Part shown: positions 3,001 to 21,478 of the stretch, in pieces | Layout of the letters: each line of letters begins with the position of its first letter | Numbering within the stretch: the first letter of the stretch is position 1 | Sequence record: NZ_AP024191.1 | Strand: one strand, 5' to 3' | Origin: a plasmid | Length of the DNA stretch: 22,871 nucleotides | Made by a program: the position numbers and the translations under genes | Notes under the pieces: generated by a model | Told to the model about the DNA's origin: nothing | Seen by the model: the letters and a program-made list of their open reading frames with translations, nothing else | The model's database searches: none

Positions 3001-3671
3001 AACAGAATCCGCGCTGACCCGCCCCGCTCGAGCGCGGTGCGTTCGGCGATCTTGAGCGCAGTGAACGTCTTGCCGGTGCCGCACGCCATGATCAGTTTGC
3101 CGCGGTCGTTGCCGGCCTCGAACCCGGAGAACACCGCGTCGATCGCTGCCTGCTGGTGCAGGCGCGGATCGTGCCGCTTCGCCTCCGAAAGCTCCACCTG
3201 CAGCTCACCGGCGGGCCACGCGATGTTCCAGTCGATCGGAGACTCGGCGATCTCCGCCAACCCGATCCGCTGCACCGGAATCGTCTGGTCCTCGAGCGCC
3301 GCCTCGGCGTTCTTTCCCCACCGATCGGTGGTCGAGATGATCACCCGGTTCGTGAACGGCTTCTTCCCCGACGCCGTGAAGAACGAATCGATATCGCCCT
3401 TGGCGAGCATGTGGGTCGGCTCGTAGAACTTGCACTGGATCGCCGTCAACGCCCCGGTATCCCGTTCCCGGGCGACCAGGTCGATCCCGGTATCCGGCTT
3501 CCCGTCGCGGCCCGGCCACTCCGTCCACCGCCACACCTGGTCGTACTGCTGCGACAGCAGCGGGTCGAGCTGGAAGTAGCGGACCATCAACTGCTCGAAC
3601 TTCGTGCCGCGTTCGGAGTTGCTGGGTGCCTGACGGAACGCCTCGATGACCTCGTGAACCGAACCCGACAC
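1..3671 (-). CDS. Type ISP-like single-polypeptide restriction-modification enzyme, N-terminal ~1223 aa (Mrr-like nuclease + SF2 DEAH helicase + gamma-class N6-adenine MTase). Open past the left window edge.
   Basis: Hand translation of the minus frame is continuous from GTG at 3671 to position 1. Nuclease: GIDLVARERDTG...AIQCKFY. Helicase: motif I MACGTGKTFT, Ia VPSISLLSQT, II LVICDEAH, III LYMTATPR, VI QSVGRVMR. MTase: GIVYTPVEVVDFI, ILDPFTGTGTFL, VVIGNPPY. The only minus-strand ORFs the track lists in 1-3671 are in the other two frames, so this frame has no internal stop there, and an edge-running ORF would not be listed. The same frame stays open upstream to a TGA at 4229..4227, overlapping the divergent gene, so GTG 3671 is the nearest plausible start. 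Confidence 0.85.
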   Translation of the reverse strand, partial: MSGSVHEVIEAFRQAPSNSERGTKFEQLMVRYFQLDPLLSQQYDQVWRWTEWPGRDGKPDTGIDLVARERDTGALTAIQCKFYEPTHMLAKGDIDSFFTASGKKPFTNRVIISTTDRWGKNAEAALEDQTIPVQRIGLAEIAESPIDWNIAWPAGELQVELSEAKRHDPRLHQQAAIDAVFSGFEAGNDRGKLIMACGTGKTFTALKIAERTALERGGSARILFAVPSISLLSQTLREWTAQTQLDLRAFAVCSDTKVSRAAEDIGAVDVAIPVTTDPATLAAEMAHRKRAKGLTVVFTTYQSLPVVAAAQQQGVDPFDLVICDEAHRTTGVTLAGEDESNFVRVHDGDFLKASRRLYMTATPRLFDDKVKDQAAEHSAELASMDDEAVYGPEFHRLSFGEAVERGLLTDYKVIVLTVDEDLVASPLQQQLAGEFSELKLDDASKIVGCWNGLAKRAGRSPDGTGFAPGEPPMKRAVVFAKDIAASKQVAEVFPSVVDAYRDLLEENENDGHAVSATNRDLACSVHHVDGTFNALQRNAELSWLKAPVPEGECRILTNARCLSEGVDVPALDAVMFLNPRNSVVDVVQSVGRVMRKADSKDYGYIILPVAVPAGVSPSQALSDNRRFKVVWQVLNALRAHDDRFNAMVNSIALNTTTTEAKKTGKGSSLLMGDHIGPVSSDNESVAGAGSSTDAASTADASGSVTEGGTDGGQMATQMALFSLSEWQEAIVAKIVDKVGTRAYWEDWAADVADIAAAQITRIKALLAGASPEVAAAFEKFHQGLKDNLNDSITRDDAISMLSQHLITKPVFDALFAEHDFASHNPVSKVMEAMVGTLGDSGLEAETAKLDGFYASVRTRAAEVTTADGKQKVIAELYEKFFRLGFRKQSEALGIVYTPVEVVDFILRAADQASKDAFGRGLTSEGVHILDPFTGTGTFLTRLLQEHIFPEDLARKYTEELHANEIMLLAYYIAAVNIESTYHAIIGSEGAAEYTPFEGIVLADTFQITEDGDSLDSVMFPQNNDRIIRQKQIPINVVIGNPPYSKGQESANDLNANVSYPTLDGRIGATYAARSTATNKNSLYDSYLRAFRWATDRIGDTGIVAFVSNGGWIDGNTADGIRLSLADEYSRIYVYNLRGNQRTAGELSRKEGGKIFGSGSRNTVAILIGVKNPDHTGDCEIFYRDIGDYLSREDKLAIIAGDTLPSIDWQSITPNTHGDWTNQR

Positions 3672-5127: not shown

Positions 5128-5328
5128 GTGAGGACATTGACGATCCGTCGACCGATCGACGATCGGACGCGCCGTGAACAGGTCATCCGCGCCGCCCGAA
5201 CCACCAGCGAACTTGAGGGTGCGCGCAGCACCGATGTGACCCGTGCCGACCAGGACGCTTACGTCCGCGGTGAGATCGACATTGCTCAGCTCGGGGCCCG
5301 GGTCCGGGCCCGCTACAACCTTGCCTAA
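5128..5328 (+). CDS. VbhA/FicA-like antitoxin of a class I Fic toxin (alternative start TTG 5137 after GGAGGTG)
   Basis: About 63-66 aa. Contains TTSELEG, which fits the (S/T)xxxE(G/N) inhibitory-helix motif. Lies immediately upstream of the fic gene. Confidence 0.6.
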   Translation: MRTLTIRRPIDDRTRREQVIRAARTTSELEGARSTDVTRADQDAYVRGEIDIAQLGARVRARYNLA

Positions 5329-5355
5329 CCTCCCGGGTCTTCGCGGAGATCTCCG

Positions 5356-6000
5356 GTGAGCAGAGATTGCCCGTGGGACACCGGTGATGTCGACGCCAAC
5401 TGGGAGGGCTATTTCCTACCTGACACAGACGTGCTGCGTAACCGGGTCGGGGCCACCACCGTTGCCGGTCTTGCTGCCGCCGAGAACGATCTCGTCGAGA
5501 TCCGGGTGGCTGAGCTGCGCGCAGATTCCACTCCTGTGCCGCGCACCTACGATCTCGTACATCTGCAGGCTGTGCACCGGTACCTGTTCCAGGACGTGTT
5601 TGAGTGGGCGGGAGAGTTGCGCACTGTCGGCATCGAGAAGGCCGGCGAATCGTTCATACCTCCTCTCGACATCGCGCGGCCGGTTGCACACGTTGCCGAC
5701 GAGATCGCTCGCACGGACCAGCTGCGTGGCGTTGCCGACGCCCAGCTCCCGGACCGCCTTGCCTACCTGTACGACTACATCAACTTCGCGCACCCGTTCC
5801 GCGAGGGCAACGGCCGCACCCAGCGGGAGTTCTTCGACCAGCTGATGTCCGAGTCCGGTCGAGGTTTGGCCTGGAATCTGATCGGCAAGACCGAGCTGCA
5901 CCACGCGTGCCACGTCGCTCGAGCCGCCGGTGATCTCGAACCGCTATGCACAATGTTCGCGCGCATCGTCGACAACGAACCCGCCTACCTCTACCCCTGA
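5356..6000 (+). CDS. fic: Fic/Doc-family (Fido) protein, toxin of a FicT/FicA-type module
   Basis: Canonical Fic motif HPFREGNGRTQREF (HxFx(D/E)GNGRxxR). Size 214 aa. Preceded by a small antitoxin-like gene. Confidence 0.85.
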   Translation: MSRDCPWDTGDVDANWEGYFLPDTDVLRNRVGATTVAGLAAAENDLVEIRVAELRADSTPVPRTYDLVHLQAVHRYLFQDVFEWAGELRTVGIEKAGESFIPPLDIARPVAHVADEIARTDQLRGVADAQLPDRLAYLYDYINFAHPFREGNGRTQREFFDQLMSESGRGLAWNLIGKTELHHACHVARAAGDLEPLCTMFARIVDNEPAYLYP

Positions 6001-6093
6001 CCTTCGCTCCGATCACAGCTGTAGTGAACCGGTCGGCTCCAAGCCAGTCCTTGACCGGGTCCGCCAGGAGGCGGCGCTTCCAGCCCACAAGTT

Positions 6094-6136
6094 ACGGTAA
6101 TACAGCTTTACAGCTGCTGTAGAGCTGTATTACCGT
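6094..6136. repeat. 43-bp near-perfect palindrome (14-bp arms ACGGTAATACAGCT / AGCTGTATTACCGT around an inner palindrome TACAGCtGCTGTA). Putative par centromere/operator.
   Basis: Reverse complement done by hand: 3 mismatches over 43 bp. Located 42 bp upstream of parA. Confidence 0.7.
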
Positions 6137-6177
6137 CATTACGGTTCTACGGTTCCGCGAAAGGGGCATTCTTCAGG

Positions 6178-6765
6178 ATGATCATCAGCACGGTGAACAC
6201 GAAGGGTGGGACGGCGAAGTCTACGACGTCGATCTACCTGGCCACGGCTTACAGCCGACTCGGTAAGCGTGCGGTTGTGTTGGATTTGGACAAGCAGGGG
6301 TCTGCTACAGACTGGGCCGATCGGGCATCGGAGAACGATGACCCTTTGCCCTTCCCGGTTCATGTGGCGAACATGAAGCGACTTTCCAAGTACGCGGAAT
6401 CGACCGAGTACGACGTGATCCTGATCGACACCCCGCCCGGGGACAGTCAGGTGATTGACGCCGCCATCGCTGTCTCCGATTTCGTGATCCTGCCGACTCA
6501 AGCAACCGGCCTGGACACCGCGCGGGTGTGGGAGACGTTGCCAGCGGTGAAGGACCGGATCCCCTACGGCGTCCTCATCACATCCGCCCGGCTCAACACC
6601 AACCTGCTGGAGAACGCGAAAGCAGCATTCGACGACAACGACATCTCCCGCTTCGACACGGTCATCCCCATGCGAGAACGCATCCGGACCACCTTCGGTT
6701 GGACGCCAACCCATGACGACGGGTACGCCGACGTGATCAAGGAGATCGAGGAGGCACTTGCATGA
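6178..6765 (+). CDS. parA: ParA-family partition ATPase
   Basis: Deviant Walker A KGGTAKSTTS, then the DLDKQG and ILIDTPP motifs. 195 aa. Confidence 0.85.
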   Translation: MIISTVNTKGGTAKSTTSIYLATAYSRLGKRAVVLDLDKQGSATDWADRASENDDPLPFPVHVANMKRLSKYAESTEYDVILIDTPPGDSQVIDAAIAVSDFVILPTQATGLDTARVWETLPAVKDRIPYGVLITSARLNTNLLENAKAAFDDNDISRFDTVIPMRERIRTTFGWTPTHDDGYADVIKEIEEALA

Positions 6766-7013
6766 GTCTGAACAAACCGAAGGGAAACCTCGGTCCGAGG
6801 AAGCCCCTGAACACTCCGTCCGAACCGACACCCTCCCCGGCGCCGTCCGTCGCGGCCGGCTTCATCGAGCCTGCTCGTACGAAGCTGACCGTGCACATCG
6901 ATGAGGATCTTCACCGTCGATTCAAGTCGACAGTGGCAGCCAGCGGTCAGACGATGCGCGCCGTCGTCGAAGAGGTTCTCGAGGACTGGGTCAGGCGGAA
7001 CGCCGCCTCCTGA
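6762..7013 (+). CDS. Ribbon-helix-helix partition/centromere-binding protein (ParG/CopG-like)
   Basis: ATGA overlap with the parA stop. C-terminal KLTVHIDEDLHRRFKSTVAASGQTMRAVVEEVLEDWV has an RHH fold signature. Confidence 0.6.
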   Translation: MSLNKPKGNLGPRKPLNTPSEPTPSPAPSVAAGFIEPARTKLTVHIDEDLHRRFKSTVAASGQTMRAVVEEVLEDWVRRNAAS

Positions 7014-7411: not shown

Positions 7412-7705
7412 TCAGCAGGCGTCACGGACGGAGCTCTCCCTCTCTTCGAGCTTGCGCGCATCGTGCAGGATGCGGCCGACTGCGCCGGTGGAGATACCCA
7501 TCTCTTCGGCGATGTCCTTGTACTTCATCCCCTGTCTGCGTAGGGCGACGACGCGGTCTCGCCGAACCTTTGCACGTTCGAGGAACTCGTCGCGGGGCTC
7601 GGCGATGAGCCGGCGGGCAGTGCGCTCGGATGAGCCGAGACGTTCTGCGAGTTCTCGGGCGGTGATGGACCGGCGTTGCGGGGCGCGGGCTGCACCTGTG
7701 CTCAT
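7412..7705 (-). CDS. repB: RepB-like small HTH DNA-binding protein (sigma-70 region-4-like), coupled to repA
   Basis: 97 aa. LRRQGMKYKDIAEEMGISTGAVGRILHDARK has an HTH. Its ATG overlaps the repA TGA (ATGA). The track's 420-aa ORF 7412..8674 is this gene fused to an antisense run-on. Confidence 0.6.
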   Translation of the reverse strand: MSTGAARAPQRRSITARELAERLGSSERTARRLIAEPRDEFLERAKVRRDRVVALRRQGMKYKDIAEEMGISTGAVGRILHDARKLEERESSVRDAC

Positions 7706-8679
7706 AGCGCGTACTCCAGTGCTGTGGCGAGATCGAATTTGGTGGCTCGTTTCCGGTTGGCTTCGATCTTGGCAGGGGTCATGACTTTTCCGCCTTTGCT
7801 TCCGCGGTGGGCTTGGCGGGCGCGGTAGGCGTCTTCGTCGAAGTTGCGCCAGATCCATTTGCCGATGGAGTGGGCGGTGGCACGAACTTCGACGAAGGGG
7901 AGGGGGTCGGCGAACTGGGTGTTGATGGCGTGGCAGTGCTGGAGTATGAGCATCAGCCAGGCGTCGAGGCCACCGTCGCGGTGGTGCCACCACTGGGGAT
8001 ACGCCCACTTGCGGGCGGTGTCGAACATGGTGACGTTGCGGCCGAGGCCGCCGGCGCGGTCGGGTCGCCGCGGTGCTTGCCGGGGGGTGTGGATGGTGGC
8101 GAGCTGGCGCAGCGTGTACGGCGTCGACGGCCCGTAGATCGTCTCCCAATCGGGGTGGATGGGGTTCTTGGTGAGCTGCCCGCCGTAGGAGAAGTCGCCC
8201 CCGACGCAGAGCTTGAGGCCGGTTTCGATGCGGTGCGCGTACCGCAGCGGGGTCAGGCGGGCGGAGTCGGTGCGGCAGACGTGGTTCGGGCCGAGCCACC
8301 AGCCGAGGTGCGCGCGCCCGGAGGGGGACTGGGCGACCCAGTTCGGCGCCGGATGGTCTCGGGGCTTTTCGAAGGCACGCATCGCGGCGTCGGGGTGGTC
8401 GCAGTCGATGACGATGGAGCCGAGCAGCGCGTGGGGCGAATGCTCGATGTAGCGCATCGCCAGGGCGTCGCCGCGACTCATCCGGTACTGGCCGCGGTCG
8501 AGGTAGTTCGTCGCGTACGGGCGGTGCGGGAGCAGTACCTCGTCGGCCCATTGGGCGTCGTCCAGCAACAGTGCCCCCGTGGTGTCCATGGAGAGCAAGG
8601 GTGCCGCACCAAGATCGATGTTCGAGTCGGACACGCCGAGCCATATAGAAAATTCTTCGGGTAGGCCGCGCCAAGCCAT
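7702..8679 (-). CDS. repA: Plasmid replication initiator RepA, primase-like (pAL5000/ColE2-type assignment is from memory). Start assumed at ATG 8679 (MAWRG...). The ORF stays open to 8943.
   Basis: GSIVIDCDHPDA has a hhhDxD primase-polymerase-like motif. Size about 325 aa. A small HTH partner gene is coupled downstream and a repeat-rich region lies upstream. Confidence 0.6.
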   Translation of the reverse strand: MAWRGLPEEFSIWLGVSDSNIDLGAAPLLSMDTTGALLLDDAQWADEVLLPHRPYATNYLDRGQYRMSRGDALAMRYIEHSPHALLGSIVIDCDHPDAAMRAFEKPRDHPAPNWVAQSPSGRAHLGWWLGPNHVCRTDSARLTPLRYAHRIETGLKLCVGGDFSYGGQLTKNPIHPDWETIYGPSTPYTLRQLATIHTPRQAPRRPDRAGGLGRNVTMFDTARKWAYPQWWHHRDGGLDAWLMLILQHCHAINTQFADPLPFVEVRATAHSIGKWIWRNFDEDAYRARQAHRGSKGGKVMTPAKIEANRKRATKFDLATALEYAL

Positions 8680-9026
8680 ATCAGGTATCCCGGCGTCCCC
8701 TTCGGTTTTTCTGGGTGTTCCGTGGGGGATCGAGCTCCTTTTAGGGTTTCCTTCGGTTCGTAATTTCGGAAGGTCCCCGGTGATCCACGAGAGGTCGTAC
8801 GACGACAGCACCCTTCTTTCTGCTGGTTCGCTTTTGTCTTCCGTCGTACGCCCCGGGAGTGCTACAGGGGCGGTTGACGTTGGTTCGCGCCGACAAGGAC
8901 AGCAGCGGTCAGGGATCCGGGCATGGCTGACCGCAGACGACACCCGCGCCGAGTCTGGTGCGGAGCCTGCGACGGCGGGGCTTCGGCGCTCTGACTGACG
9001 CCGCTGACGGTTAGTCGGGGCCGGGT
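8680..9026. other. Putative replication origin / repA promoter region with short repeats
   Basis: CCTTCGGTT occurs twice (8699, 8750). The palindrome GTCGTACGAC (8793-8802) and CGTCGTACG (8843) are present. CTGAC occurs at least 4 times in 8925-9010. The region is relatively AT-richer than its surroundings. Confidence 0.4.
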
Positions 9027-10030: not shown

Positions 10031-10071
10031 GGCCGGAAGCTTATTTCGTCGCGCCAAAATTTCACATTTAG

Positions 10072-14629: not shown

Positions 14630-15106
14630 ATGAGTGTGGATGAGGTGACGTTCTCGGAGCTGCAGTTGCAGGGGAAGGCGACGGTCGAGCGGCTGCGTCG
14701 CTCACCGGCCCAGTCGCTGCTGGTGCGGCGTCGTGATGCCGAGGACCTGGTGCTGACCACGGCGGCGCGGGCGGAGCTCGAGCACACTGCGGCGTCGGTG
14801 ACGACACGGATGTTCGTGGCGTTGATGCAGCGCGATCCGCGGGCGCGGGAGTTGGTCACCGATGTGCTGCCCGAGGTGTTCCCGTGGGTAGCGTTCCTCT
14901 CCCGCGAAGAGGTACAGGAGTTCGTCGTCGAGCTGGTGGAGACCCTGCGGGCGGCGGAATCGCTCGACAACCCAGCTCCGGTGGTACAGGTGATCGAGGC
15001 CTGGCGGCACACCGCGGAGGTGCTGGCCGACCCCGAGCTGGCGGCGATCCTGGCGGCCGACACCGATGAGGACCTCGGCACCGTCCCCGCACCGGACGCT
15101 GCGTGA
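14630..15106 (+). CDS. Phd/YefM-like antitoxin with a long C-terminal extension (158 aa)
   Basis: The N-terminus VTFSELQ..ATVERL...LLVRRRDAEDLVLTTAARAELE fits the Phd/YefM pattern. Its stop overlaps the next gene's GTG (GTGA). Confidence 0.5.
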   Translation: MSVDEVTFSELQLQGKATVERLRRSPAQSLLVRRRDAEDLVLTTAARAELEHTAASVTTRMFVALMQRDPRARELVTDVLPEVFPWVAFLSREEVQEFVVELVETLRAAESLDNPAPVVQVIEAWRHTAEVLADPELAAILAADTDEDLGTVPAPDAA

Positions 15107-15459
15107 GCCCGAAACGCGGCGACCGGGTCGCCCCACCCGCGGACCCGGCCGGTGGGTGGGAGCTGCGGTTCGCCACCACCGACGCGGTCAAGGGCTGGGA
15201 CGCGCTGTGCCAGCAGGCGCCGGCGAACACTCTCACCGCCTGGAACGAACTGCGCTCACGCCCCGCCACCCCTGCTCCGACCCCGCGGCACCACCAGCTC
15301 AAAGGCTCCCTCGCCACCGCCACCCACGGAGGGACGGTAATGGAGCAGTGGCAATACGAAGTCACCGCCGGCGGGCGTGTTTGGTACCTGGTCGACACCA
15401 CCCGGCGCACCCTGTGGATCAAGGCCGCTGGGACCGGCCACCCCAAGGTCACCGACTGA
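15103..15459 (+). CDS. RelE/ParE-superfamily toxin
   Basis: HHQLKGSL...GGTVMEQWQYEVTAGGRVWYLVDTTRRTLWIKAAGTGHPK matches the RelE/ParE C-terminal core (LkG.....YRirvgdYRiiY.i..e...v.il.vghRk). Confidence 0.65.
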   Translation: MSPKRGDRVAPPADPAGGWELRFATTDAVKGWDALCQQAPANTLTAWNELRSRPATPAPTPRHHQLKGSLATATHGGTVMEQWQYEVTAGGRVWYLVDTTRRTLWIKAAGTGHPKVTD

Positions 15460-15491
15460 GTGGGGAGTGGCCGGTGTGCCGATCGACGTGA

Positions 15492-16403
15492 TTAGGCGGC
15501 TCGATCGCCTTCAGGCGGCGTCCACCGCGCACGAACGAAGGACCGAAACTGCGCTAGGAGGTCCTCGTCCTTGGCATGCGCCCGGTGGGTGACAGTGAGG
15601 TTGGTGGTCCGTCCTCGAGCGAGCCCAGGCTGGGCCTTGAGGATGTCTTTCGGTGTTGTGAGTAGCTTCCCCGCGCTGGATACCACTGCTTGCTCGAGTT
15701 GGGCGTAGGTCAGGACACTCGTCTCGTAGTAGCGGCCGGCGGACATCAGCAGCGTTGATCGTGCCCAATTGTGAGGAACGAGAACAAGCGGCTTACCTCC
15801 GGCCACTGGCAACTGGAGGGGCTTGCGGGTCCACTCCCGGTCTTGCGGATCCCACACCTGGCGGTGAAAGGTCTCTATGCGGTGGCCAGCAGCGCGGAAC
15901 TGCGGATACCTATCCACCATCTCGGAAGTGAACTCGGCCAACGGCTCGAAGATGATCCGCGTCGTGATGTCCGAGGTGATGTCGCGGTCGATGCCTTCGA
16001 CAAACAGCGGGAGGTCCTCGATCTGCCGGAGGACCCCTACACGGAGCAGCGCCTCCATATCTGTGTTCAGAGCGTTCCAGATCCAGGCACCGACGTCCTC
16101 GGCACCGCCGTGGCCACTGAAGCTGTTGGTTGCGAGGCCAAGTCGTGTTTCCCACGGTTCGACGAAACGTTGCAACAGCTCGAGGCCACGACGATGGTCA
16201 GACGGCCTGCTCGAAAGAGCGCAGCGGGTGATCTCGCGGAAGAACGTCTCGGTGCAGTCGTTCGCCAGAGTCGCGAACGGCTCGGGGGCCTGGTGAAGGC
16301 GGATGGCGTGGGGGTCGACGAACATCCGATTGTCGACATCGATATCGACGTCGAGGAACGGGACAGGACCGGGGATGCCGTAATAGTCAGTGATGGGAGC
16401 CAT
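15492..16403 (-). CDS. Hypothetical acidic protein, 303 aa
   Basis: Ordinary composition and no overlapping alternative. No family recognised. Confidence 0.5.
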   Translation of the reverse strand: MAPITDYYGIPGPVPFLDVDIDVDNRMFVDPHAIRLHQAPEPFATLANDCTETFFREITRCALSSRPSDHRRGLELLQRFVEPWETRLGLATNSFSGHGGAEDVGAWIWNALNTDMEALLRVGVLRQIEDLPLFVEGIDRDITSDITTRIIFEPLAEFTSEMVDRYPQFRAAGHRIETFHRQVWDPQDREWTRKPLQLPVAGGKPLVLVPHNWARSTLLMSAGRYYETSVLTYAQLEQAVVSSAGKLLTTPKDILKAQPGLARGRTTNLTVTHRAHAKDEDLLAQFRSFVRARWTPPEGDRAA

Positions 16404-16519
16404 GAGCTCCTCCTTTCAAAAGTCTTGGCCTGAAAGAGAAGAGAGCGGTTGCGCCCTAGCTGACTCCGCTACGCTGTAGACGACTCGTCCAAAGTCATCA
16501 CGGCGCTTCAGGCCGGGAT

Positions 16520-16548
16520 GATCTGTTTCGCTCAACCCGAAACAGATC
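16520..16548. terminator. Hairpin GATCTGTTTC-(loop)-GAAACAGATC followed by AGAATTTTG on the plus strand
   Basis: 10-bp perfect stem plus a T-run, seen in sequence. Confidence 0.4.
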
Positions 16549-16559
16549 AGAATTTTGAG

Positions 16560-16597
16560 CATGTCCGGGCGGCATCCTTAGATGCCGCCCGGACATG
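16560..16597. terminator. Strong hairpin CATGTCCGGGCGGCATC-CTTA-GATGCCGCCCGGACATG (17-bp perfect stem), directly 3' of the 51-aa minus-strand gene
   Basis: Seen in sequence. It separates the end of the sigma/XRE/ImmA operon from the 303-aa gene's upstream region. Confidence 0.55.
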
Positions 16598-16598
16598 A

Positions 16599-16754
16599 TT
16601 ACTTCTCGTTGCGGACGCCCTTGTGCTGGTTAGGGCTTCCGTTGAGGATGCGGCCGGTTGCAGTGTCGCGCTTGAACCAGGTCGTGCCGACCTTGAACTC
16701 GCTGCGGCCCTTGACTGCTCCAACCCGATGCCCTCGTCCGGTGTTCTTCGCCAT
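16599..16754 (-). CDS. Small basic protein, 51 aa, with a strong SD (AGGAGA)
   Basis: Hand translation MAKNTGRGHRVGAVKGRSEFKVGTTWFKRDTATGRILNGSPNQHKGVRNEK*. Below the track's length cutoff. The hairpin follows it immediately. Confidence 0.5.
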   Translation of the reverse strand: MAKNTGRGHRVGAVKGRSEFKVGTTWFKRDTATGRILNGSPNQHKGVRNEK

Positions 16755-16871
16755 GGTGGTTTATCTCCTTCGACTGGCACCTGTTCCTGATCGATCGGCG
16801 ATCGACCCAGGCGGGCTCTCACTACGTAGTCGAGGCAGCGGACAAAAGAGTTAGGTACCGGGACAGTCCCG

Positions 16872-17891
16872 TCAGCCGCGGCACTCCTCGCATAGTCCGG
16901 CCATGAGGAGATGTGGTTGGAAACGTAGATAGCAACCGTTGCAGGTTTGCTCCCGCAATGCGGCTCGCTCACAACGACAGTGCTTGCACTGTGGGCAGAA
17001 CGGTTGCTCACATGTAGGACAGGGATATCCGCGTGCGATCTGGGACTTGCCGCAGCAGTAGATTTCGGTCGCGGGTCGTTCATCGAACTCCCGGGGAGGA
17101 TCGACGTGGAGGCGCTCTGCGTTCCACAAGTCGATGTCGGAGAACACCGCCATGACACGTTTGCCACCGTCATGGACGGCGTCTACGTAGAACTCCGCCG
17201 GCGCATCCCAGCGGTTCCTCCAGATGACCCTCTTCGTAACCGACCCACCGGGGGCAAGGTTCAACAGCGGATGACCGTCGGGTACCAGCTGATTGCGCCA
17301 CGGGAACACTGTGGGCCATCCTCGATCGAGGTCTGGCCTCACACTGGAGTGAGACACCCGAGCGGTGGTTTGATCGACGACCAGGACGGCACCGAGGCTC
17401 GGTAGTCGTTTCGCCAATGCAATCGCGCAGACTGGCCGGCTGGCATGGCTTACGTCGAACAGTTCAAGTACATGATGAGCCCGGATCGGCCCCTTACCGA
17501 TGACCGTATCGACGACACCATCAGGAAGCAGGAGACGCTGGGCGATGTGGTCGCAGACTGTCTCCAACAGGCGTGGTGGGTCGTCTTGATCTGCAATCCA
17601 GTCGTAGAGTTCCTCCGCCTGCTCGACGAGCCAATGCCCCAGCTCGTGTCCCAATGTGAAGTTTTCTCGTCGGCTGTGGGGGGTAGGGGCGTAGAGGATG
17701 ACTCCATCTTGAAGGAAGGAGATTCCGTCACAAGCGCCGCCGTCGTTGCGGTTCTCGGCCAAATGCTCGACGCACTCAACCTCGATTCCAAGCTCGGTGC
17801 GAAGAGTTTGGATCGGGCTCAACGTGAAGTTCTCACGCGCCATCTGGGGCAAGATCTTCAAAGCTGTGTCAACGCACCAGCCGAGGTCCAC
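16872..17891 (-). CDS. ImmA/IrrE-family Zn-metallopeptidase with a C-terminal Cys-rich (multi-CxxC) domain
   Basis: RRENFTLGHELGHWL has the HEXXH motif in the ImmA/IrrE context. The C-terminus is CCGKSQIARGYPCPTCEQPFCPQCKHCRCERAALREQTCNGCY...CEECRG. The start GTG sits 1 nt after the XRE gene's TAA. Confidence 0.75.
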   Translation of the reverse strand: MDLGWCVDTALKILPQMARENFTLSPIQTLRTELGIEVECVEHLAENRNDGGACDGISFLQDGVILYAPTPHSRRENFTLGHELGHWLVEQAEELYDWIADQDDPPRLLETVCDHIAQRLLLPDGVVDTVIGKGPIRAHHVLELFDVSHASRPVCAIALAKRLPSLGAVLVVDQTTARVSHSSVRPDLDRGWPTVFPWRNQLVPDGHPLLNLAPGGSVTKRVIWRNRWDAPAEFYVDAVHDGGKRVMAVFSDIDLWNAERLHVDPPREFDERPATEIYCCGKSQIARGYPCPTCEQPFCPQCKHCRCERAALREQTCNGCYLRFQPHLLMAGLCEECRG

Positions 17892-18554
17892 TTATGGTCC
17901 CTTCGTTCTTTCCACAGTTTCTACCAGCGCTTCGAGTGACCGCAGCATCTGGCTTGAGTCGGGGTGATCTCCGCGATGCGCAGTCGCCAGCAGTCGTGAT
18001 TCCAGAGCCGAAGCAGCCAATTCCCGTGACATGTCTTGGATTCGCGCCCATCGGTCCACGAGCTTTTGGAAGCCCGGAGTCTTCCTTACGCTGGCAAGAG
18101 CCTCGTCCTCAGTGCGTACAGCTGTGCTTGTGGTCAGGAGCTCGGCGACGGTTCTGGTTTCCTCTGCGATTGCTGCGATTAGTGCGGGTGGCACGTTTGA
18201 TGTCGAACGATTCTCCCACCGGAATACTTCTCCGGCCTGTACTTCCCACCCCCGCGCTGTCAGTCGTTCCGCTAGCTGGCTCGCAGATAGACCGGCATTT
18301 TTGCGGGCCCGCTTCAATGCGTTGCTGTCAAGCGCGCGCTCAGGATCAGGGACAAGGCCGAGCATCGCTGCCACGGGGTCGGATGACAGAGGCGGAGCAC
18401 CTTGTGCCTTCTCTCGGAGAAGGTCTGCTATGTCGGTTAGGGCTGTTATGTACTCCCCTTCGTCGGCTGCTTCGATCTGGAGTGGATCCATCGCTTGGCC
18501 TGCTCGAATCTCATGCAGGGAGGCGAGCAGCTCTTCCCGTTCCTTCTCCTTCAT
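17892..18554 (-). CDS. XRE-family HTH protein (220 aa), partner of the ImmA-like peptidase
   Basis: LKRARKNAGLSASQLAERLTARGWEVQAGEVFRWEN is an HTH. Its ATG overlaps the sigma gene's TGA (ATGA). Confidence 0.7.
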   Translation of the reverse strand: MKEKEREELLASLHEIRAGQAMDPLQIEAADEGEYITALTDIADLLREKAQGAPPLSSDPVAAMLGLVPDPERALDSNALKRARKNAGLSASQLAERLTARGWEVQAGEVFRWENRSTSNVPPALIAAIAEETRTVAELLTTSTAVRTEDEALASVRKTPGFQKLVDRWARIQDMSRELAASALESRLLATAHRGDHPDSSQMLRSLEALVETVERTKGP

Positions 18555-19084
18555 CCTTTTACCTCCTCCCAGCCCATCGCTTCTCGTAACTTGGCAAGAG
18601 CTTCAAGCTTCATCTGGCTGACTCGTCCCGGTGTAACGCCGAGTTCGGCAGCTACTTCATTTCGTGGTCGCTCAAGCGCGACGAACTCCCACGCAACCTT
18701 TCGGTGTCGCTCGTCCAAGGAAGGCAGGGCCTCGTTGATGCGCTTCGCTAACTGTTGGCGCTCGAGTGCGGACGCAACCTCGTCGGACAGGTCGGTGGAG
18801 TCTGCGTAGTCGTGTTCTTCGGATAGCTCAGGGCCGGAATTTTTAACGGCCGCAGACTTGAGGTGATCCAACGCCTTCCGCTGGACGACCCGTATTAAGA
18901 AGGCTTCCCAGTTCTGCACCGTACTTTTAGGCGGGGAGGACATGATGGACACGATCGCGTCTTGGACAACGTCGTTTGCGTGTCCTTCTCGCCCATAGCC
19001 ACGAAGCTTTGACGCTGCGACACGATGCAGGGCGTCACGGTGCTTCGCGTAGAGAGCAGCGAGGTCGGGCGGTCTTTCTGTCAT
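18551..19084 (-). CDS. ECF-type sigma-70 family sigma factor (177 aa from ATG 19084; track ORF extends to 19276)
   Basis: Region-2-like LYAKHRDALHRVAASKLRGYGREGHANDVVQDAIVSIM. Region-4-like LPSLDERHRKVAWEFVALERPRNEVAAELGVTPGRVSQMKLEALAKLREAM. Confidence 0.75.
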   Translation of the reverse strand: MTERPPDLAALYAKHRDALHRVAASKLRGYGREGHANDVVQDAIVSIMSSPPKSTVQNWEAFLIRVVQRKALDHLKSAAVKNSGPELSEEHDYADSTDLSDEVASALERQQLAKRINEALPSLDERHRKVAWEFVALERPRNEVAAELGVTPGRVSQMKLEALAKLREAMGWEEVKG

Positions 19085-19357
19085 CCCCACTACCGCCTCA
19101 TGCCACTCGCTGTTGAGCGCATCAGTGACGCTCCTCCCCGTACCTTGGCCAACATCATCACCCCTGCAACCGTGTCCTGATCCGTAGTCGAGATAGCAGT
19201 CATCAGAGTTAGCACCAACCCCCGGTCTCTCCGGGCAGTCTGTCTTGCCCTGAAAACAACCCCTTCCGGGCGCCACTGATCTCGCCGGGTCGGTGCTCGA
19301 CCTCGTGCTGGCTGGTATCGAAAACCGGTCTCCACATCATCTGGCATCGATCGTTTG

Positions 19358-20320
19358 TCAGGTGTGTTTGGTGCACAACAGATTCGGAGTGGTGCACCAA
19401 CCCTGGTCTTCGAGCCAGCGGTGGACCGCGGAGGGTAGGCCGCTTGTGGGTACGGCGCCGATGACCAGTGGCCCTTCGCCGCAGAGACCGCAACTGATCG
19501 CTATGACCTGCTGGTGGGGTTGGCATCGGACGCAACGCCGATGCTCGCGGACCTGGCCGTCGGAGTCGACGTGCAACCAGACCATGTCGAGGTCGTCGAG
19601 GTGCGGGCCCGCCTCCTGTCGTGTCGACGGCCGGTAACCGCAGGTCGGGCACGTCAATCGGTCCTCACCCGGACCAGGAGTGGAAACGGCTGCCGGGACA
19701 GCACTGTCGGCCTCGATCGGGGCCGCGGGTGAGACGGTCATCAACTCTGTCGGCCTCGGTGGCAGGTGCCGGTAGAGGGTGGAGCGGGTCAGTCCGGTCT
19801 TGGCGACGATCTCGGAGACGGTGGCGCCAGTGTCTCGTAGTTGGATGGCGTGGGCGATCTGGGATTCGGTGACCACCGACGGGCGGCCGGTGCGCCGGCC
19901 CTTCGCGGTCGCGACCTGGCGGGCGTGGGCGGCGCGTTCGAGGGTGTAGGTGCGTTCCATCTGTGCGAACAGTGCGAGTAGTACGACGGCCAGCTGTGCC
20001 ATCGGGTCGTCCGGGTTCGAGGAGTCGATGCGGATCGGATCTGCCAGGTTCCGCACTCCGATGCCACGCTCGCGTAGGTCGTGGATCAGGTTCAGGGTGT
20101 CGCGCACGTTCCGGCCGAGCCGGTCGAGGGTGTGCGTGACGATGACGTCGCCGTCGCGGGCGTACTCGAGCAGTGCGGTCAGTCCGGGGCGGTCGGTGGT
20201 GGCCCCGGACTTCTTGTCGACGTAGATGTTTGCCGGGTCGATCCCGGCCGTGGTGAGGGCGTCGATCTGCCGGTCGAGGTCCTGTTTGGTCGTCGACACC
20301 CGCGCGTATCCCAGCTCCAC
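19358..20320 (-). CDS. Serine recombinase (resolvase/invertase family) with a roughly 120-aa Cys-rich C-terminal extension. An alternative GTG start is at 20365.
   Basis: GYARVSTTKQDLDRQ has the catalytic Ser context. DVIVTHTLDRLGRN follows. HTH: TVSEIVAKTGLTRSTLYRHL. Tail: CPTCG...CVRCQ...CGLCG. Confidence 0.8.
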   Translation of the reverse strand: MELGYARVSTTKQDLDRQIDALTTAGIDPANIYVDKKSGATTDRPGLTALLEYARDGDVIVTHTLDRLGRNVRDTLNLIHDLRERGIGVRNLADPIRIDSSNPDDPMAQLAVVLLALFAQMERTYTLERAAHARQVATAKGRRTGRPSVVTESQIAHAIQLRDTGATVSEIVAKTGLTRSTLYRHLPPRPTELMTVSPAAPIEADSAVPAAVSTPGPGEDRLTCPTCGYRPSTRQEAGPHLDDLDMVWLHVDSDGQVREHRRCVRCQPHQQVIAISCGLCGEGPLVIGAVPTSGLPSAVHRWLEDQGWCTTPNLLCTKHT

Positions 20321-20365
20321 GCCGGGAGCGTATCGAAAGTTGCCCCCGTAGCAAGGTTTCGACAC

Positions 20366-20470: not shown

Positions 20471-21478
20471 TCAATCAGTTCGGATCGGCATGACCACGCA
20501 GTCTTCAATAACTACATCCGGCGTTTGGTCGTCCGGCAGTTCGAGTCGGGGCGAGTTGGTGACGCCGAAAGGAACATGCACGCATGGGGCCACCGTGGTT
20601 GCGGGGGCAAGATGCTTGGTTTGGTCATCGAAGAAGATGTGCGGTTTGAGGATTTCGAGGACTTTCGTTTTGGACACTCCACCGAGGAAGAAGGCATCGT
20701 TTACGGTCACGCCCCAGCTCTTGAGGCTTCGGACGGCCCGCTCATGGGATGGAGCATTTCGTGCGGTGACGATCGCGACGTGAACTCGAATCCGGTAGCT
20801 CTTGTCGGCCAAGCGGCGCTTCTCTTCAACCTTCTGGATGCGGTTGACGGCTGCGAGTAGGTCGCGCAGAGGGCCTGGTCTCAGGGGCTCAAGAACCTTC
20901 TTCACCTCGTGGCTGTGGAAGTCATCCAAACCGCTTTGCTGCATCACACGTTCGGACTCGTCAGACGCAAGCACCCCATCGAAGTCGAAGGCAATTCGCA
21001 GATCGGCGCTGTCATCCGTGTCTTCCACTGCGTTGCCGAGGACAAGTCCGGCCGGATGGCCCGCCGCGACGGCTTGCCGGACGTCCTTGTCGTTTCCCGA
21101 AAGAAACAAAGACATGTTGAACGCTGGCATGAACTTGTGTGGAGAGCGGCCCTGGCGGAAGACAGCTCGCGTGATGGGAAGGCCGTGATACTGGATTGAG
21201 CGCATCACGCGCAGACCGGTGTCAGGGTCGTTGCGAGACAGAACAATGACCTCAACCAAGGGAGAACCTATGTCTTCCGTGAGGTCGTTGAGTGACAACA
21301 ACCGCTTGATGAAGGCGAAGGCCACACCCGGACGAAGCGGGTCATCAAGATGATCCTCCTGGAACCTTCGATACCCTTCTTCCCCCTCAGCGTTGAACAC
21401 GTCATCGGACTCCGCCAGGTCGAATAGTGCGCTCGATGCAACACCGATGACTAACTGATCGTCCAGACTGACTGCCAT
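20471..21478 (-). CDS. 5'-nucleotidase-family (PF06189-like, HAD-superfamily) protein
   Basis: The N-terminal LVIGVASSALFDL, VEVIVLSRNDPDTGLRVMRSI and GLPITRAVFRQGRSPHKFMPAFNMSLFLS blocks match my recollection of the bacterial 5'-nucleotidase family (LVIAISSRALFDL...VEVILLSRNS.DTGLR...GL.ITRAAF.GG..P..YL.AF...LFLS). Confidence 0.6.
   Translation of the reverse strand: MAVSLDDQLVIGVASSALFDLAESDDVFNAEGEEGYRRFQEDHLDDPLRPGVAFAFIKRLLSLNDLTEDIGSPLVEVIVLSRNDPDTGLRVMRSIQYHGLPITRAVFRQGRSPHKFMPAFNMSLFLSGNDKDVRQAVAAGHPAGLVLGNAVEDTDDSADLRIAFDFDGVLASDESERVMQQSGLDDFHSHEVKKVLEPLRPGPLRDLLAAVNRIQKVEEKRRLADKSYRIRVHVAIVTARNAPSHERAVRSLKSWGVTVNDAFFLGGVSKTKVLEILKPHIFFDDQTKHLAPATTVAPCVHVPFGVTNSPRLELPDDQTPDVVIEDCVVMPIRTD

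What the first reader, a model, noticed from the sequence alone, without database searches (positions are those of the whole stretch)
16599..19084. Tightly coupled operon of ECF sigma, XRE HTH, ImmA/IrrE peptidase with a Cys-rich tail, and a 51-aa basic protein
Four minus-strand genes with overlapping or abutting start and stop codons (ATGA at the sigma/XRE junction, TAAgGTG at the XRE/ImmA junction) end in a strong 17-bp-stem hairpin. ImmA/IrrE-XRE pairs are damage- or signal-responsive switches, for example ImmR/ImmA, or the CapH/CapP pairs that gate defence operons. I do not recognise this arrangement as a described module. It has an ECF sigma factor upstream in place of an anti-sigma partner, and the peptidase carries an unusual multi-CxxC C-terminal domain with at least 14 Cys. 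That domain may bind zinc or nucleic acid, or sense redox state. It could be a plasmid-borne regulatory circuit controlling the restriction enzyme, the TA modules or copy number in response to stress.
Basis: partly seen in the sequence, partly recalled or inferred. Interest (0 to 1): 0.65.

Follow-up and report, generated by a model that had tools for sequence, protein, structure and literature searches.

The report
Protease-gated sigma switch for defence genes
This plasmid carries a self-contained genetic switch (its own sigma factor, a helix-turn-helix partner protein and an IrrE/CapP-type protease) that in many Actinobacteria sits just upstream of anti-phage operons, and it is an uncharacterised sigma-factor version of the known CapH/CapP damage-sensing regulators.

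Summary
In detail: four intact minus-strand genes encode an ECF-type sigma, a 220-aa XRE-HTH protein, a 339-aa IrrE/CapP-family peptidase with a 12-Cys tail, and a 51-aa basic protein followed by a 17-bp hairpin.

The sigma, HTH and peptidase genes keep this order in 49 of 51 related actinobacterial loci. An ECF-type promoter motif, CTAAC-N17-CGACTAC, occurs exactly twice per locus: upstream of sigma, and just after the peptidase gene upstream of the 51-aa gene or cargo. The window has two copies (0.05 expected) and no third.

Cargo in relatives is CBASS, ubiquitin-like/E1 operons, OLD-type ATPase, SIR2 and HNH. The module is therefore a sigma-containing relative of CapH/CapP. Lau et al. 2022 mentioned that association in one sentence, for other phyla, and did not study it.

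The 51-aa gene has its own promoter and is an output, not an operon member. Relatives also lie beside WYL (CapW-like) or HTH+ImmA regulators.

Most likely mechanism (inferred): the protease cleaves p220 on a DNA-damage signal and frees sigma, which amplifies itself and transcribes the output. Whether p220 acts as anti-sigma or as operator-binding repressor is unresolved. Control of the restriction enzyme, TA modules or copy number is not supported.

The parts
19184..19212 (-). P_sigma: ECF-type promoter motif CTAACTCTGATGACTGCTATCTCGACTAC, about 100 nt upstream of the sigma start codon (autoregulatory promoter, inferred)
   Evidence: Exact match to CTAAC-N17-CGACTAC. The window has 2 matches against 0.05 expected. 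The same motif lies 77-148 nt upstream of sigma in 37 of 50 modules.
18551..19084 (-). ECF-type (group 4) sigma-70 family sigma factor, 177 aa, with sigma-2 and sigma-4 domains only
   Evidence: Pfam Sigma70_r2 (E=1.7e-8) and r4 (E=1.5e-6); TIGR02937 at 82.2 bits against a cut-off of 42.9. Weak full-length match to M. tuberculosis ECF SigL, 6dv9, E=3e-5.
17892..18554 (-). p220: CapH-like XRE-HTH protein. It has an extra N-terminal two-helix extension (residues 1-51), an almost invariant linear motif GAPPLxxDPVAAMLGLVPD (52-70), the HTH (about 75-140) and a C-terminal four-helix domain (145-218). It is the presumed protease substrate and sigma inhibitor.
   Evidence: The start codon overlaps the sigma stop (ATGA), and the junction overlaps in nearly all loci. 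Alignment A2 gives the conservation. AF2 model has mean pLDDT 79.6. Foldseek matches the HTH to the CapH N-terminal domain 7t5u at rmsd 1.2 A, and to SinR and C.BclI.
16872..17891 (-). IrrE/CapP-family (M78) zinc metallopeptidase, 339 aa. It has H82-E83-xx-H86 and E110, IrrE-like peptidase, HTH and GAF regions, and a C-terminal 12-Cys tail (residues 279-337) likely to bind three zinc ions.
   Evidence: PADLOC capP E=6.7e-13. Family profile against IrrE 8slm E=4.5e-11 and 3dte E=3.9e-9, covering residues 63-249. The catalytic residues and the 12 tail Cys are invariant. 439 homologues, every source-named one among the 120 listed being from Actinomycetota.
16826..16854 (-). P_out: second copy of the ECF-type promoter motif, CTAACTCTTTTGTCCGCTGCCTCGACTAC, 18 nt after the peptidase stop codon and about 70 nt upstream of the 51-aa gene
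   Evidence: Exact motif match. The same position holds the motif in 40 of 50 modules, including loci where the 51-aa gene is divergent from sigma or is replaced directly by cargo genes.
16755..16825 (-). Leader of the 51-aa gene, with a 5'-proximal stem (GAGAG...CUCUC type in relatives) just before the Shine-Dalgarno sequence
   Evidence: The outer stem is 75% paired against 38-48% for slid registers, and the covariation score is 0.291 against 0.167 in shuffles, reached by 0 of 500. Rfam has no match.
16599..16754 (-). p51: 51-aa basic protein, a member of PADLOC candidate family PDC-S38. It is the first gene of the sigma-dependent output and its function is unknown.
   Evidence: PADLOC PDC-S38 E=5.9e-13 over the full length. 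It is 78-96% identical across orders, whereas the other three proteins are about 32-63% identical. AF2 predicts a small four-strand beta-meander at pLDDT 72, with no informative fold match.
16560..16597 (.). 17-bp GC-rich hairpin starting 2 nt after the p51 stop codon, without a U-tract; a terminator, attenuator or mRNA-stabilising stem
   Evidence: 17 pairs, 12 G-C. An equivalent hairpin of differing sequence follows p51 in about 31 of 36 distinct relatives.
15492..16403 (-). p303: the co-directional gene downstream of the hairpin and a possible cargo. Control by the module is not established.
   Evidence: PADLOC PDC-M36A E=1e-9. The order p51, hairpin, p303 recurs on plasmids of R. pyridinivorans and R. 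gordoniae. However, p303 carries its own conserved 110-nt leader, which is also present on pRSRe2287, a plasmid with neither the module nor p51.

Best explanation
The locus is a three-protein signal-responsive transcription switch with a small output gene. It belongs to the IrrE/DdrO, ImmA/ImmR and CapP/CapH group of regulators, but transcription runs through a dedicated ECF-type sigma factor.

Shown by the sequence data:
- Sigma, p220 and the IrrE/CapP-like peptidase form a conserved unit with overlapping or abutting reading frames.
- One ECF-type promoter motif (CTAAC-N17-CGACTAC) occurs exactly twice per locus: in front of the sigma operon, and right after the peptidase gene in front of p51 and/or a cargo operon.
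- The cargo differs between loci and consists largely of known anti-phage or conflict systems.

Inferred mechanism:
1. At rest, p220 keeps sigma-dependent transcription off. I favour p220 holding sigma directly through its extra N-terminal extension, that is, acting as a cytoplasmic anti-sigma factor. My confidence in this step is about 0.45. Operator binding by its HTH, as in CapH, is the alternative.
2. A damage or infection cue activates the peptidase. By analogy with IrrE and CapP this would be single-stranded DNA bound between the peptidase and GAF-like domains, possibly modulated by the 12-Cys zinc tail.
3. The peptidase cleaves p220.
4. Freed sigma transcribes its own operon, giving positive feedback that is reset by newly made p220, and transcribes the output promoter.
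5. This produces p51 and, past the hairpin, whatever cargo lies downstream.

On this plasmid the only certain output is p51. Read-through into p303 is possible but unproven.
For: Family assignments:
- Sigma matches TIGR02937.
- The peptidase matches PADLOC capP at E=6.7e-13 and the IrrE structures at E=4.5e-11 across the peptidase, HTH and GAF regions.
- The p220 HTH superposes on the CapH N-terminal domain at rmsd 1.2 A. It keeps an invariant Trp (W113) about 36 residues into the HTH, the position of CapH W35, which is reported to anchor CapH on the CapP GAF domain.

Conservation:
- Sigma, p220 and peptidase keep the same order in 49 of 51 loci from Mycobacteriales, Micrococcales, Propionibacteriales, Pseudonocardiales and others.
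- The sigma and p220 reading frames overlap in nearly all loci, with a GGAGG ribosome-binding site inside the sigma 3' end.

Promoter:
- Two exact motif copies in the window against 0.05 expected.
- The same two positions hold the motif in 34 of 50 modules under a strict pattern, 37 for P_sigma and 40 for P_out.
- The motif keeps its position relative to p51 when p51 is divergent from sigma (L013, L014, L018, L023, L052-59).
- In L035, which lacks p51, it sits 88 nt upstream of the first gene of the Ubl/E1 operon.
- The AAC...CG layout with 17-nt spacing is the classic ECF promoter architecture (established knowledge).

Cargo downstream in relatives: type II CBASS, SAVED+CD-NTase CBASS headed by p51, Multi_ubiq or Ubl with ThiF E1, AAA+subtilase, an OLD-TOPRIM ATPase, SIR2 and HNH, and ResIII and HerA helicases.

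No conserved operator other than the promoter elements was seen in either promoter region or in the back-to-back intergenic regions. This mildly favours control of sigma through protein-protein contact.

The N-terminal extension and the almost invariant motif GAPPLxxDPVAAMLGLVPD lie N-terminal to the HTH, where the solved CapH N-terminal domain has nothing. That domain is 66 residues and aligns with the p220 HTH alone.
Against: - Nothing here shows proteolysis, sigma binding or DNA binding. Every mechanistic step is inferred from homology and gene and promoter layout.
- p220 matches no anti-sigma domain model. Its HTH looks like a normal DNA-binding XRE domain, and the segment CTCGAC-N7-GTGAG around the -10 element could be an imperfect palindromic operator.
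- A mirror-tree test found no special co-variation between the p220 N-terminus and sigma.
- The peptidase lacks the CapP cysteine-switch loop: there is no Cys between H86 and E110. Its activation may therefore differ from that of CapP.
- 13 to 16 of the 50 modules lack one or both motifs under the strict pattern.
- On this plasmid the co-directional downstream gene p303 carries its own conserved leader, so the local output may be p51 alone, and its function is unknown.
Confidence: 0.65

Rival explanations
1. Plain CapH/CapP logic. p220 is only a DNA-binding repressor that occupies an operator overlapping both promoters. The sigma is a constitutively active specificity factor with no anti-sigma partner, and cleavage of p220 simply unblocks the promoters.
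For: The p220 HTH is a canonical XRE fold that superposes on the CapH N-terminal domain, SinR and C.BclI. CapH, DdrO and ImmR all act this way. The sequence around the -10 element (CTCGAC...GTGAG) is weakly palindromic and conserved.
Against: No clear inverted repeat is shared by the two promoters beyond the -35 and -10 elements. The most conserved part of p220 is an N-terminal extension and motif that the solved 66-residue CapH N-terminal domain does not contain. The overlapping sigma/p220 reading frames are typical of sigma/anti-sigma pairs.
Confidence: 0.3
2. The four genes are themselves a minimal stress-induced or abortive-infection system. p51 is the effector (a toxin, growth inhibitor or nucleic-acid binder), and downstream operons are passengers.
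For: p51 is PADLOC candidate PDC-S38 and is by far the most conserved component. Several loci have nothing co-directional after p51 except a roughly 90-aa ORF. p51 relatives lie directly beside other damage-sensing regulators: WYL proteins on Klebsiella and Serratia plasmids and HTH+ImmA pairs on Rhodococcus plasmids. A strong hairpin follows p51 in most loci.
Against: About 12 of 51 loci lack p51 yet often keep the output promoter in front of cargo. In L052-59 p51 is followed 82 nt later by a CBASS operon. The p51 fold gives no functional clue. This reading concerns the output and is compatible with the main explanation.
Confidence: 0.25
3. An ImmR/ImmA-type life-cycle switch of a mobile element that controls plasmid or ICE transfer, excision or recombination.
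For: The module is next to a serine recombinase in the window and downstream of a TrwC relaxase on an element of more than 11 kb that is shared between genera. ImmA/ImmR systems do this in ICEBs1 (established knowledge).
Against: The sigma promoter motif is not found in front of the recombinase or relaxase genes. Upstream neighbours vary between loci, whereas co-directional downstream neighbours are defence-type operons. The family is absent from the phage collection.
Confidence: 0.07
4. One reading: the circuit controls the plasmid's restriction enzyme, nucleotidase, TA modules or copy number, perhaps through the TTGCA(C/T)TAA element.
For: All of these genes are on the same small plasmid. 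The Type ISP enzyme, the nucleotidase, the recombinase and the module are co-directional.
Against: The window holds only two copies of the cognate promoter, neither near those genes. The TTGCAYTAA sites lie at 10068 and 11496, unrelated to the module. Relatives carry the module without any of these neighbours.
Confidence: 0.04

Closest known systems
CapH + CapP (Lau et al. 2022; 'controllers of associated pathways')
   Same: An IrrE-like M78 peptidase is paired with an XRE-HTH partner and encoded directly upstream of CBASS and other immune operons. The peptidase matches the PADLOC capP model and the HTH superposes on the CapH N-terminal domain. Lau et al. note that 24 CBASS systems also encode a sigma-70-family factor.
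   Different: - Here a dedicated ECF sigma with its own duplicated promoter is an integral, co-translated part of the module.
- The HTH protein carries an extra N-terminal extension of about 70 aa with an invariant motif.
- The peptidase lacks the cysteine-switch loop and has a 12-Cys C-terminal tail.
- A 51-aa gene heads the output.
- The sigma-associated systems seen in the one part of Lau's table that was read are Proteobacteria and Bacteroidota, not this actinobacterial family.
IrrE (PprI) / DdrO of Deinococcus
   Same: This is the closest solved structure by sequence profile: E=4.5e-11 across the peptidase, HTH and GAF regions, including the ETxC segment around the third zinc ligand. Like IrrE, the peptidase has no cysteine-switch loop. 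IrrE is stimulated by ssDNA and depends on zinc availability.
   Different: IrrE acts on a plain repressor of a chromosomal DNA-repair regulon. It has no sigma factor, no Cys-rich tail and no mobile defence cargo.
ImmA / ImmR of ICEBs1 and phage-like elements
   Same: An M78 anti-repressor protease cleaves an XRE repressor in response to damage or other signals on a mobile element.
   Different: ImmR/ImmA control element excision and transfer genes through sigma-A promoters. Here the output is defence-type cargo and p51, transcribed through a private ECF promoter.
ECF sigma / anti-sigma pairs released by regulated proteolysis (for example sigma-E/RseA, SigD/RsdA)
   Same: A small sigma with sigma-2 and sigma-4 domains only, an autoregulated AAC...CG promoter, a co-translated downstream partner, and a protease as the trigger.
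   Different: The partner has no recognisable anti-sigma domain and instead has an XRE-HTH fold. The protease is a cytoplasmic M78/IrrE enzyme encoded in the same operon, rather than site-1 and site-2 membrane proteases or Clp.
CapW/BrxR (WYL) and CapK+CapS regulators
   Same: They occupy the same functional niche: DNA-damage-responsive control of adjacent immune operons. p51 relatives are divergently paired with WYL-domain proteins on Klebsiella and Serratia plasmids.
   Different: The proteins and mechanisms are unrelated: ligand-released repressor and kinase/substrate respectively.

Membership tests
CapP / IrrE (M78, COG2856) peptidase | HExxH zinc site plus a downstream Glu ligand | tested here: met
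   H82, E83, H86 and E110 are invariant in 20 homologues. PADLOC capP E=6.7e-13. The Pfam M78 score alone is below cut-off (18.5 against 22).
CapP / IrrE (M78, COG2856) peptidase | Three-part architecture: peptidase, helical HTH-like region, GAF-like domain | tested here: met
   The profile alignment to IrrE 8slm and 3dte runs from residue 63 to 249 and covers IrrE residues 75-274. No structure model of this protein was made.
CapP / IrrE (M78, COG2856) peptidase | Internal cysteine-switch loop (present in about one third of CapPs, so optional) | tested here: not met
   There is no Cys between H86 and E110. C113 aligns with the Cys of the IrrE 'ETLCN' segment.
CapP / IrrE (M78, COG2856) peptidase | ssDNA-stimulated cleavage of the HTH partner | not testable with these tools
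   Needs biochemistry.
CapH-type substrate/repressor | XRE HTH followed by a C-terminal helical oligomerisation domain | tested here: met
   AF2 model: HTH at residues 75-140 with pLDDT mostly above 90 (82 in one ten-residue block), then four helices at 145-218. Foldseek gives rmsd 1.2 A to 7t5u. The N-terminal 70 aa are additional.
CapH-type substrate/repressor | Binds an operator in the promoter of the associated operon | tested here: inconclusive
   No conserved palindrome was found apart from the promoter elements themselves. Binding was not assayed.
CapH/CapP module | Encoded immediately upstream of an immune operon | tested here: met
   Relatives carry CBASS, Ubl/E1, OLD-type, SIR2 and HNH cargo. 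In the window the downstream genes are p51 (PDC-S38) and p303 (PDC-M36A-like).
ECF (group 4) sigma factor | Only sigma-2 and sigma-4 domains, about 170-200 aa | tested here: met
   Pfam r2 at residues 11-78 and r4 at 119-168, with no r3 or r1. TIGR02937 at 82 bits.
ECF (group 4) sigma factor | Autoregulated promoter with an AAC -35 element and a CG -10 element | tested here: met
   CTAAC-N17-CGACTAC lies 77-148 nt upstream of sigma in 37 of 50 modules and is duplicated at the output. Transcription itself was not assayed.
ECF sigma / anti-sigma pair | Co-transcribed partner with a recognisable anti-sigma domain that binds sigma-2 and sigma-4 | tested here: inconclusive
   p220 is co-translated with sigma but matches no anti-sigma model. 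The mirror-tree test was uninformative. No complex prediction was possible.
PADLOC PDC-S38 (p51) | Full-length match to the 57-position candidate-family HMM | tested here: met
   E=5.9e-13, residues 1-51 against profile positions 1-57. The family has 328 representatives at 50% identity.

The most novel reading that the evidence does not exclude
An XRE-fold protein acts as a cytoplasmic anti-sigma factor that is destroyed by an operon-encoded, ssDNA- or zinc-sensing IrrE-type protease. This would be the first case of an M78 peptidase gating an ECF sigma factor. In addition, the ultra-conserved 51-aa protein would be a common small effector or adaptor induced by at least three unrelated kinds of DNA-damage sensor (sigma/HTH/ImmA, HTH/ImmA and WYL) on plasmids across phyla.
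Probability: 0.3. Interest if true: 0.75.

Novelty: new variant of a known kind. Interest (0 to 1): 0.55.

Why it matters
CapH/CapP, CapW and CapK/CapS show that many anti-phage operons are switched on by DNA-damage sensors. All characterised examples work by removing a repressor from a housekeeping promoter.

This family adds a private ECF sigma factor with a readily recognisable promoter motif. Its regulon can therefore be read directly from sequence: two promoters per locus.

The architecture predicts positive feedback and sharp, insulated induction of toxic cargo. It spreads between actinobacterial genera on conjugative elements together with CBASS or ubiquitin-like systems.

It offers three things:
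1. A testable case of a new route to sigma activation, through an M78 protease.
2. A portable, orthogonal inducible promoter, sigma and inhibitor set for Actinobacteria.
3. A lead on the unknown 51-aa family PDC-S38, which repeatedly sits directly beside different damage-sensing regulators.

Tried and rejected
- Mirror-tree test: distance matrices for four p220 segments were compared with those of sigma and the peptidase. All were dominated by shared phylogeny, and the partial correlations with sigma were low (0.24-0.36) for all four segments, with none standing out. Uninformative.
- RNAalifold on the p51 leader gave no consensus because the inner region varies in length. A manually specified outer stem was then tested and is moderately supported.
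- Foldseek of the p51 model returned only single beta-propeller blades. The one long sequence hit, 850 aa, is a propeller-repeat protein. No functional inference was drawn.
- A search for an operator palindrome shared by the two promoters, or lying in the back-to-back intergenic regions, found nothing convincing.
- Rfam found nothing in the window.
- The sigma-70 promoter scan found none in 15400-19500.
- The phage collection has no homologue of the peptidase or p51.
- The idea that p303 is the regulated cargo was weakened because p303 has its own conserved leader on a plasmid that lacks the module.
- A Pfam call on raw minus-strand stretches failed on stop codons. It was replaced by a circular reading-frame scan.

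Full report
**What is there**

The window is a complete 22,871-bp circular plasmid of Prescottella equi. The peptidase protein is 100% identical to 'RE9431_49780 (plasmid)' on a contig of exactly this length, and one 1,766-codon reading frame closes across the window ends.

On the minus strand lie four ORFs:
- sigma, 18551..19084, 177 aa
- p220, 17892..18554
- a 339-aa peptidase, 16872..17891
- p51, 16599..16754

Sigma and p220 overlap by ATGA. p220 and the peptidase abut as TAAGTG. A 117-nt spacer precedes p51, and a 17-bp hairpin (16560..16597) follows it. This stretch has lower G+C (0.59-0.61) than most of the rest of the plasmid (about 0.63-0.71), although the 20-22 kb region is similarly low.

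**Protein identities**

- Sigma is an ECF-type factor with sigma-2 and sigma-4 domains only (TIGR02937, 82 bits). Its nearest solved relative is M. tuberculosis SigL, at only E=3e-5.
- The peptidase has HELGH and E110. It matches PADLOC capP at E=6.7e-13. As a family profile it matches the IrrE structures 8slm and 3dte over residues 63-249, that is, over the peptidase, HTH and GAF-like regions. It lacks the CapP cysteine-switch loop. Its last 60 residues carry 12 invariant Cys (CC, CPxC, CPxC, CxC, CxxC, CxxC), enough for three zinc sites. Only insignificant FYVE-like similarity was found.
- p220 scores below Pfam thresholds, but its AF2 model (mean pLDDT 79.6) shows a canonical XRE HTH at residues 75-140. 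This superposes at 1.2 A on the CapH N-terminal domain. The HTH is flanked by a C-terminal four-helix domain and by a two-helix N-terminal extension. The extension ends in the best-conserved segment of the protein, GAPPLxxDPVAAMLGLVPD.
- p51 matches PADLOC candidate family PDC-S38 over its full length.

**Conservation**

A scan of 185,579 species genomes returned 49 loci, and two plasmids added two more. In 49 of these 51 loci, sigma, p220 and the peptidase occur in the same order. The sigma/p220 junction overlaps in nearly all of them.

The loci come from many actinobacterial orders. Ten of them belong to one mobile element of more than 11 kb, shared at 84-99.9% identity by Arthrobacter, Tersicoccus, Microbacterium, Kocuria, Georgenia, Gordonia, Actinotalea, Micrococcoides, Herbiconiux and a Propionibacteriaceae isolate. 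On it the module lies between a TrwC relaxase gene and a type II CBASS operon.

p51 is present in 39 of 51 loci at 78-94% identity. The other three proteins are about 32-63% identical. In four genome loci and in eight metagenomic loci, p51 lies upstream of sigma and is divergent from it.

**The promoter pair**

Aligning the sequences upstream of p51 revealed CTAAC-N17-(T)CGACTAC. Scanning every locus showed that the motif occurs essentially only twice per locus:
- 77-148 nt upstream of sigma
- immediately after the peptidase stop codon

Under a strict pattern, 37 of 50 modules have the first copy, 40 have the second and 34 have both. In the window the two exact copies are at 19184-19212 and 16826-16854, against 0.05 expected, and there is no third.

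The AAC/CG layout with 17-nt spacing is the standard ECF promoter architecture. From memory, it resembles the B. subtilis sigma-X consensus tGtAAC-N17-CGaC; I did not check this. The motif follows p51 when p51 is divergent. In L035, a locus without p51, it sits 88 nt upstream of the first gene of the Ubl/E1 operon.

I therefore read the first copy as an autoregulatory promoter and the second as the output promoter of this sigma. This is inference from sequence; transcription was not measured.

**Output**

Co-directional genes downstream of the output promoter in relatives are:
- patatin, CD-NTase and Cap2 (CBASS)
- p51, SAVED and CD-NTase
- Ubl or Multi_ubiq with DUF6791-ThiF E1, AAA+subtilase, and an OLD-TOPRIM ATPase
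- SIR2, HNH and an MBL-fold protein
- ResIII and HerA helicases

This is the gene neighbourhood that defines CapH/CapP-type 'controllers of associated pathways'.

In the window the output is p51 and then the hairpin. The next co-directional gene is p303, which resembles PDC-M36A. The order p51, hairpin, p303 recurs on two Rhodococcus plasmids. However, p303 has its own conserved 110-nt leader, which is also present on pRSRe2287 without the module or p51. Its dependence on the switch is therefore open.

**p51**

The family is wide: 328 representatives at 50% identity, almost all stand-alone proteins of 50-110 aa. Close or distant members sit next to other damage-type regulators:
- a divergent HTH_3 gene with a short M78 peptidase on Rhodococcus plasmids
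- a divergent WYL-domain gene on Klebsiella and Serratia plasmids

Other members are isolated genes in prophages or phage-plasmids.

The AF2 model is a four-strand beta-meander (pLDDT 72) without an informative match. The leader has a moderately supported 5' stem, and most loci have a strong hairpin directly after the stop codon. The function of p51 remains unknown. It behaves as a recurrent first output of damage sensors.

**Mechanism**

By homology with IrrE/DdrO, ImmA/ImmR and CapP/CapH, the peptidase most likely cleaves p220 when activated, probably by single-stranded DNA.

What p220 does before cleavage is the open point. Four observations fit an anti-sigma role:
- the overlapping reading frames of sigma and p220
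- the autoregulated promoter
- the absence of any operator other than the promoter elements
- an extra, highly conserved N-terminal segment that the solved CapH N-terminal domain lacks

Against this, p220 has no recognisable anti-sigma domain, its HTH looks competent for DNA binding, and a co-variation test was uninformative.

I put the overall circuit at 0.65. Within it, I put anti-sigma action at about 0.45 and pure operator binding at about 0.3.

**Comparison with what is known, and novelty**

Lau et al. 2022 state in one sentence that 24 CBASS systems encode a sigma-70-family factor next to capH and capP. The systems so flagged in the one part of their table that was read are Proteobacteria and Bacteroidota. 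Of the eight actinobacterial genera searched for, only Mycobacterium occurs, as two CapH-CapP fusion entries.

No paper combining ECF, anti-sigma and M78 peptidases in this sense was found, and none mentions PDC-S38.

The module is thus a new, uncharacterised variant of a known kind, not a new kind. The new points here are:
- the cognate promoter pair
- the extended HTH partner
- the 12-Cys tail
- the p51 output

Noticed in passing
window 3998 -> 1 / 22871 -> 21572, minus strand: When the window is circularised, one uninterrupted 1,766-codon frame spans its ends. Its C-terminus matches Type ISP/IIG restriction-modification enzymes (Pfam Type_ISP_C E=3.8e-88; PADLOC REase_MTase_IIG E=6.8e-137). 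The window is therefore a whole circular plasmid, and this large gene is intact rather than truncated.
   Followed up: yes
window 16524-16544: A perfect palindrome, TGTTTCG-N7-CGAAACA, lies between the p51 hairpin and p303. The same half-sites occur upstream of p51 on R. pyridinivorans plasmid p_4-4_A (one regex-detected copy at L063 5574 and a second, near-identical one read by eye at about 5617; search range L063 5560-5640), next to a divergent HTH_3 gene that has no homologue in the window. It may be a relic operator or the site of an unidentified regulator.
   Followed up: partly
window 15492-16403 (minus strand) and its 110-nt leader: p303 has no Pfam or PDB match and only a partial PADLOC PDC-M36A match (E=1e-9). 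It is common on Rhodococcus and Prescottella plasmids. It carries a conserved upstream element (GTGATGAC.TTG...CAGTC.TCT.CAGCGTA.CGGAGT) whether or not p51 or the module is present.
   Followed up: partly
window 20471-21478 (minus strand); L042 10054-10983: The 5'-nucleotidase (Pfam PF06189, E=1.8e-126) equals PADLOC candidate PDC-S08 (E=2.8e-138). A 62%-identical copy lies downstream of the sigma, HTH and peptidase module in Nocardioides halotolerans, so this gene also travels with the module.
   Followed up: no
window 19358-20365 (minus strand): The serine recombinase (Resolvase + HTH_7) has a C-terminal extension of about 130 aa with several CxxC pairs (weak double-zinc-ribbon hit). It is 92% identical to the recombinase of P. 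equi plasmid pRSRe2287, which has a p303 homologue but no module.
   Followed up: no
L005 1500-13076 and L006, L007, L009-L012, L015, L021, L045: An element of more than 11 kb (TrwC relaxase, the module, p51, a roughly 90-aa ORF, then patatin/CD-NTase/Cap2 CBASS) is shared at 84-99.9% nucleotide identity by ten genera of Actinomycetota. This indicates recent horizontal spread of regulator and defence system together.
   Followed up: partly
L001 7325-7594, L005 8353-8625 and 9 other loci: A conserved ORF of about 90 aa (cluster c0) follows p51 and its hairpin in 11 loci, with or without CBASS behind it. Its only hit is a sub-threshold Cas2-like match (E=0.006).
   Followed up: no
L060, L061, L062 (Mycolicibacterium, Streptomyces and Sinomonas plasmids): Distant peptidase relatives (25-31% identity, aligned up to residue 337 of the query, that is, through the region of the Cys-rich tail) are preceded by a longer HTH-type or unannotated protein (233-319 aa) and by an unannotated protein of 320-340 aa in place of sigma. 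They are followed by multiubiquitin/ThiF or nucleotidyltransferase genes. This may be a second three-gene variant.
   Followed up: partly
L072 (Klebsiella 5.1-kb plasmid) 2010-3159; L076 (Serratia) 2510-3659; L067 5001-5171: p51-family genes are divergently paired with WYL-domain (CapW/BrxR-like) genes on enterobacterial plasmids. In one prophage a family member sits a few genes from an Acb2/Tad1-hairpin (anti-CBASS-like) gene.
   Followed up: partly
window 5128-7013 and 7702-8943: The plasmid backbone carries a VbhA antitoxin with a Fic toxin (5128-6000), ParA with ParG (6178-7013) and a Replicase/PriCT_1 Rep gene (7702-8943, minus strand). A DUF6247-like gene (14630-15106) converges on p303.
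   Followed up: no
It is unrelated to the sigma module, and its meaning was not examined.
   Followed up: no
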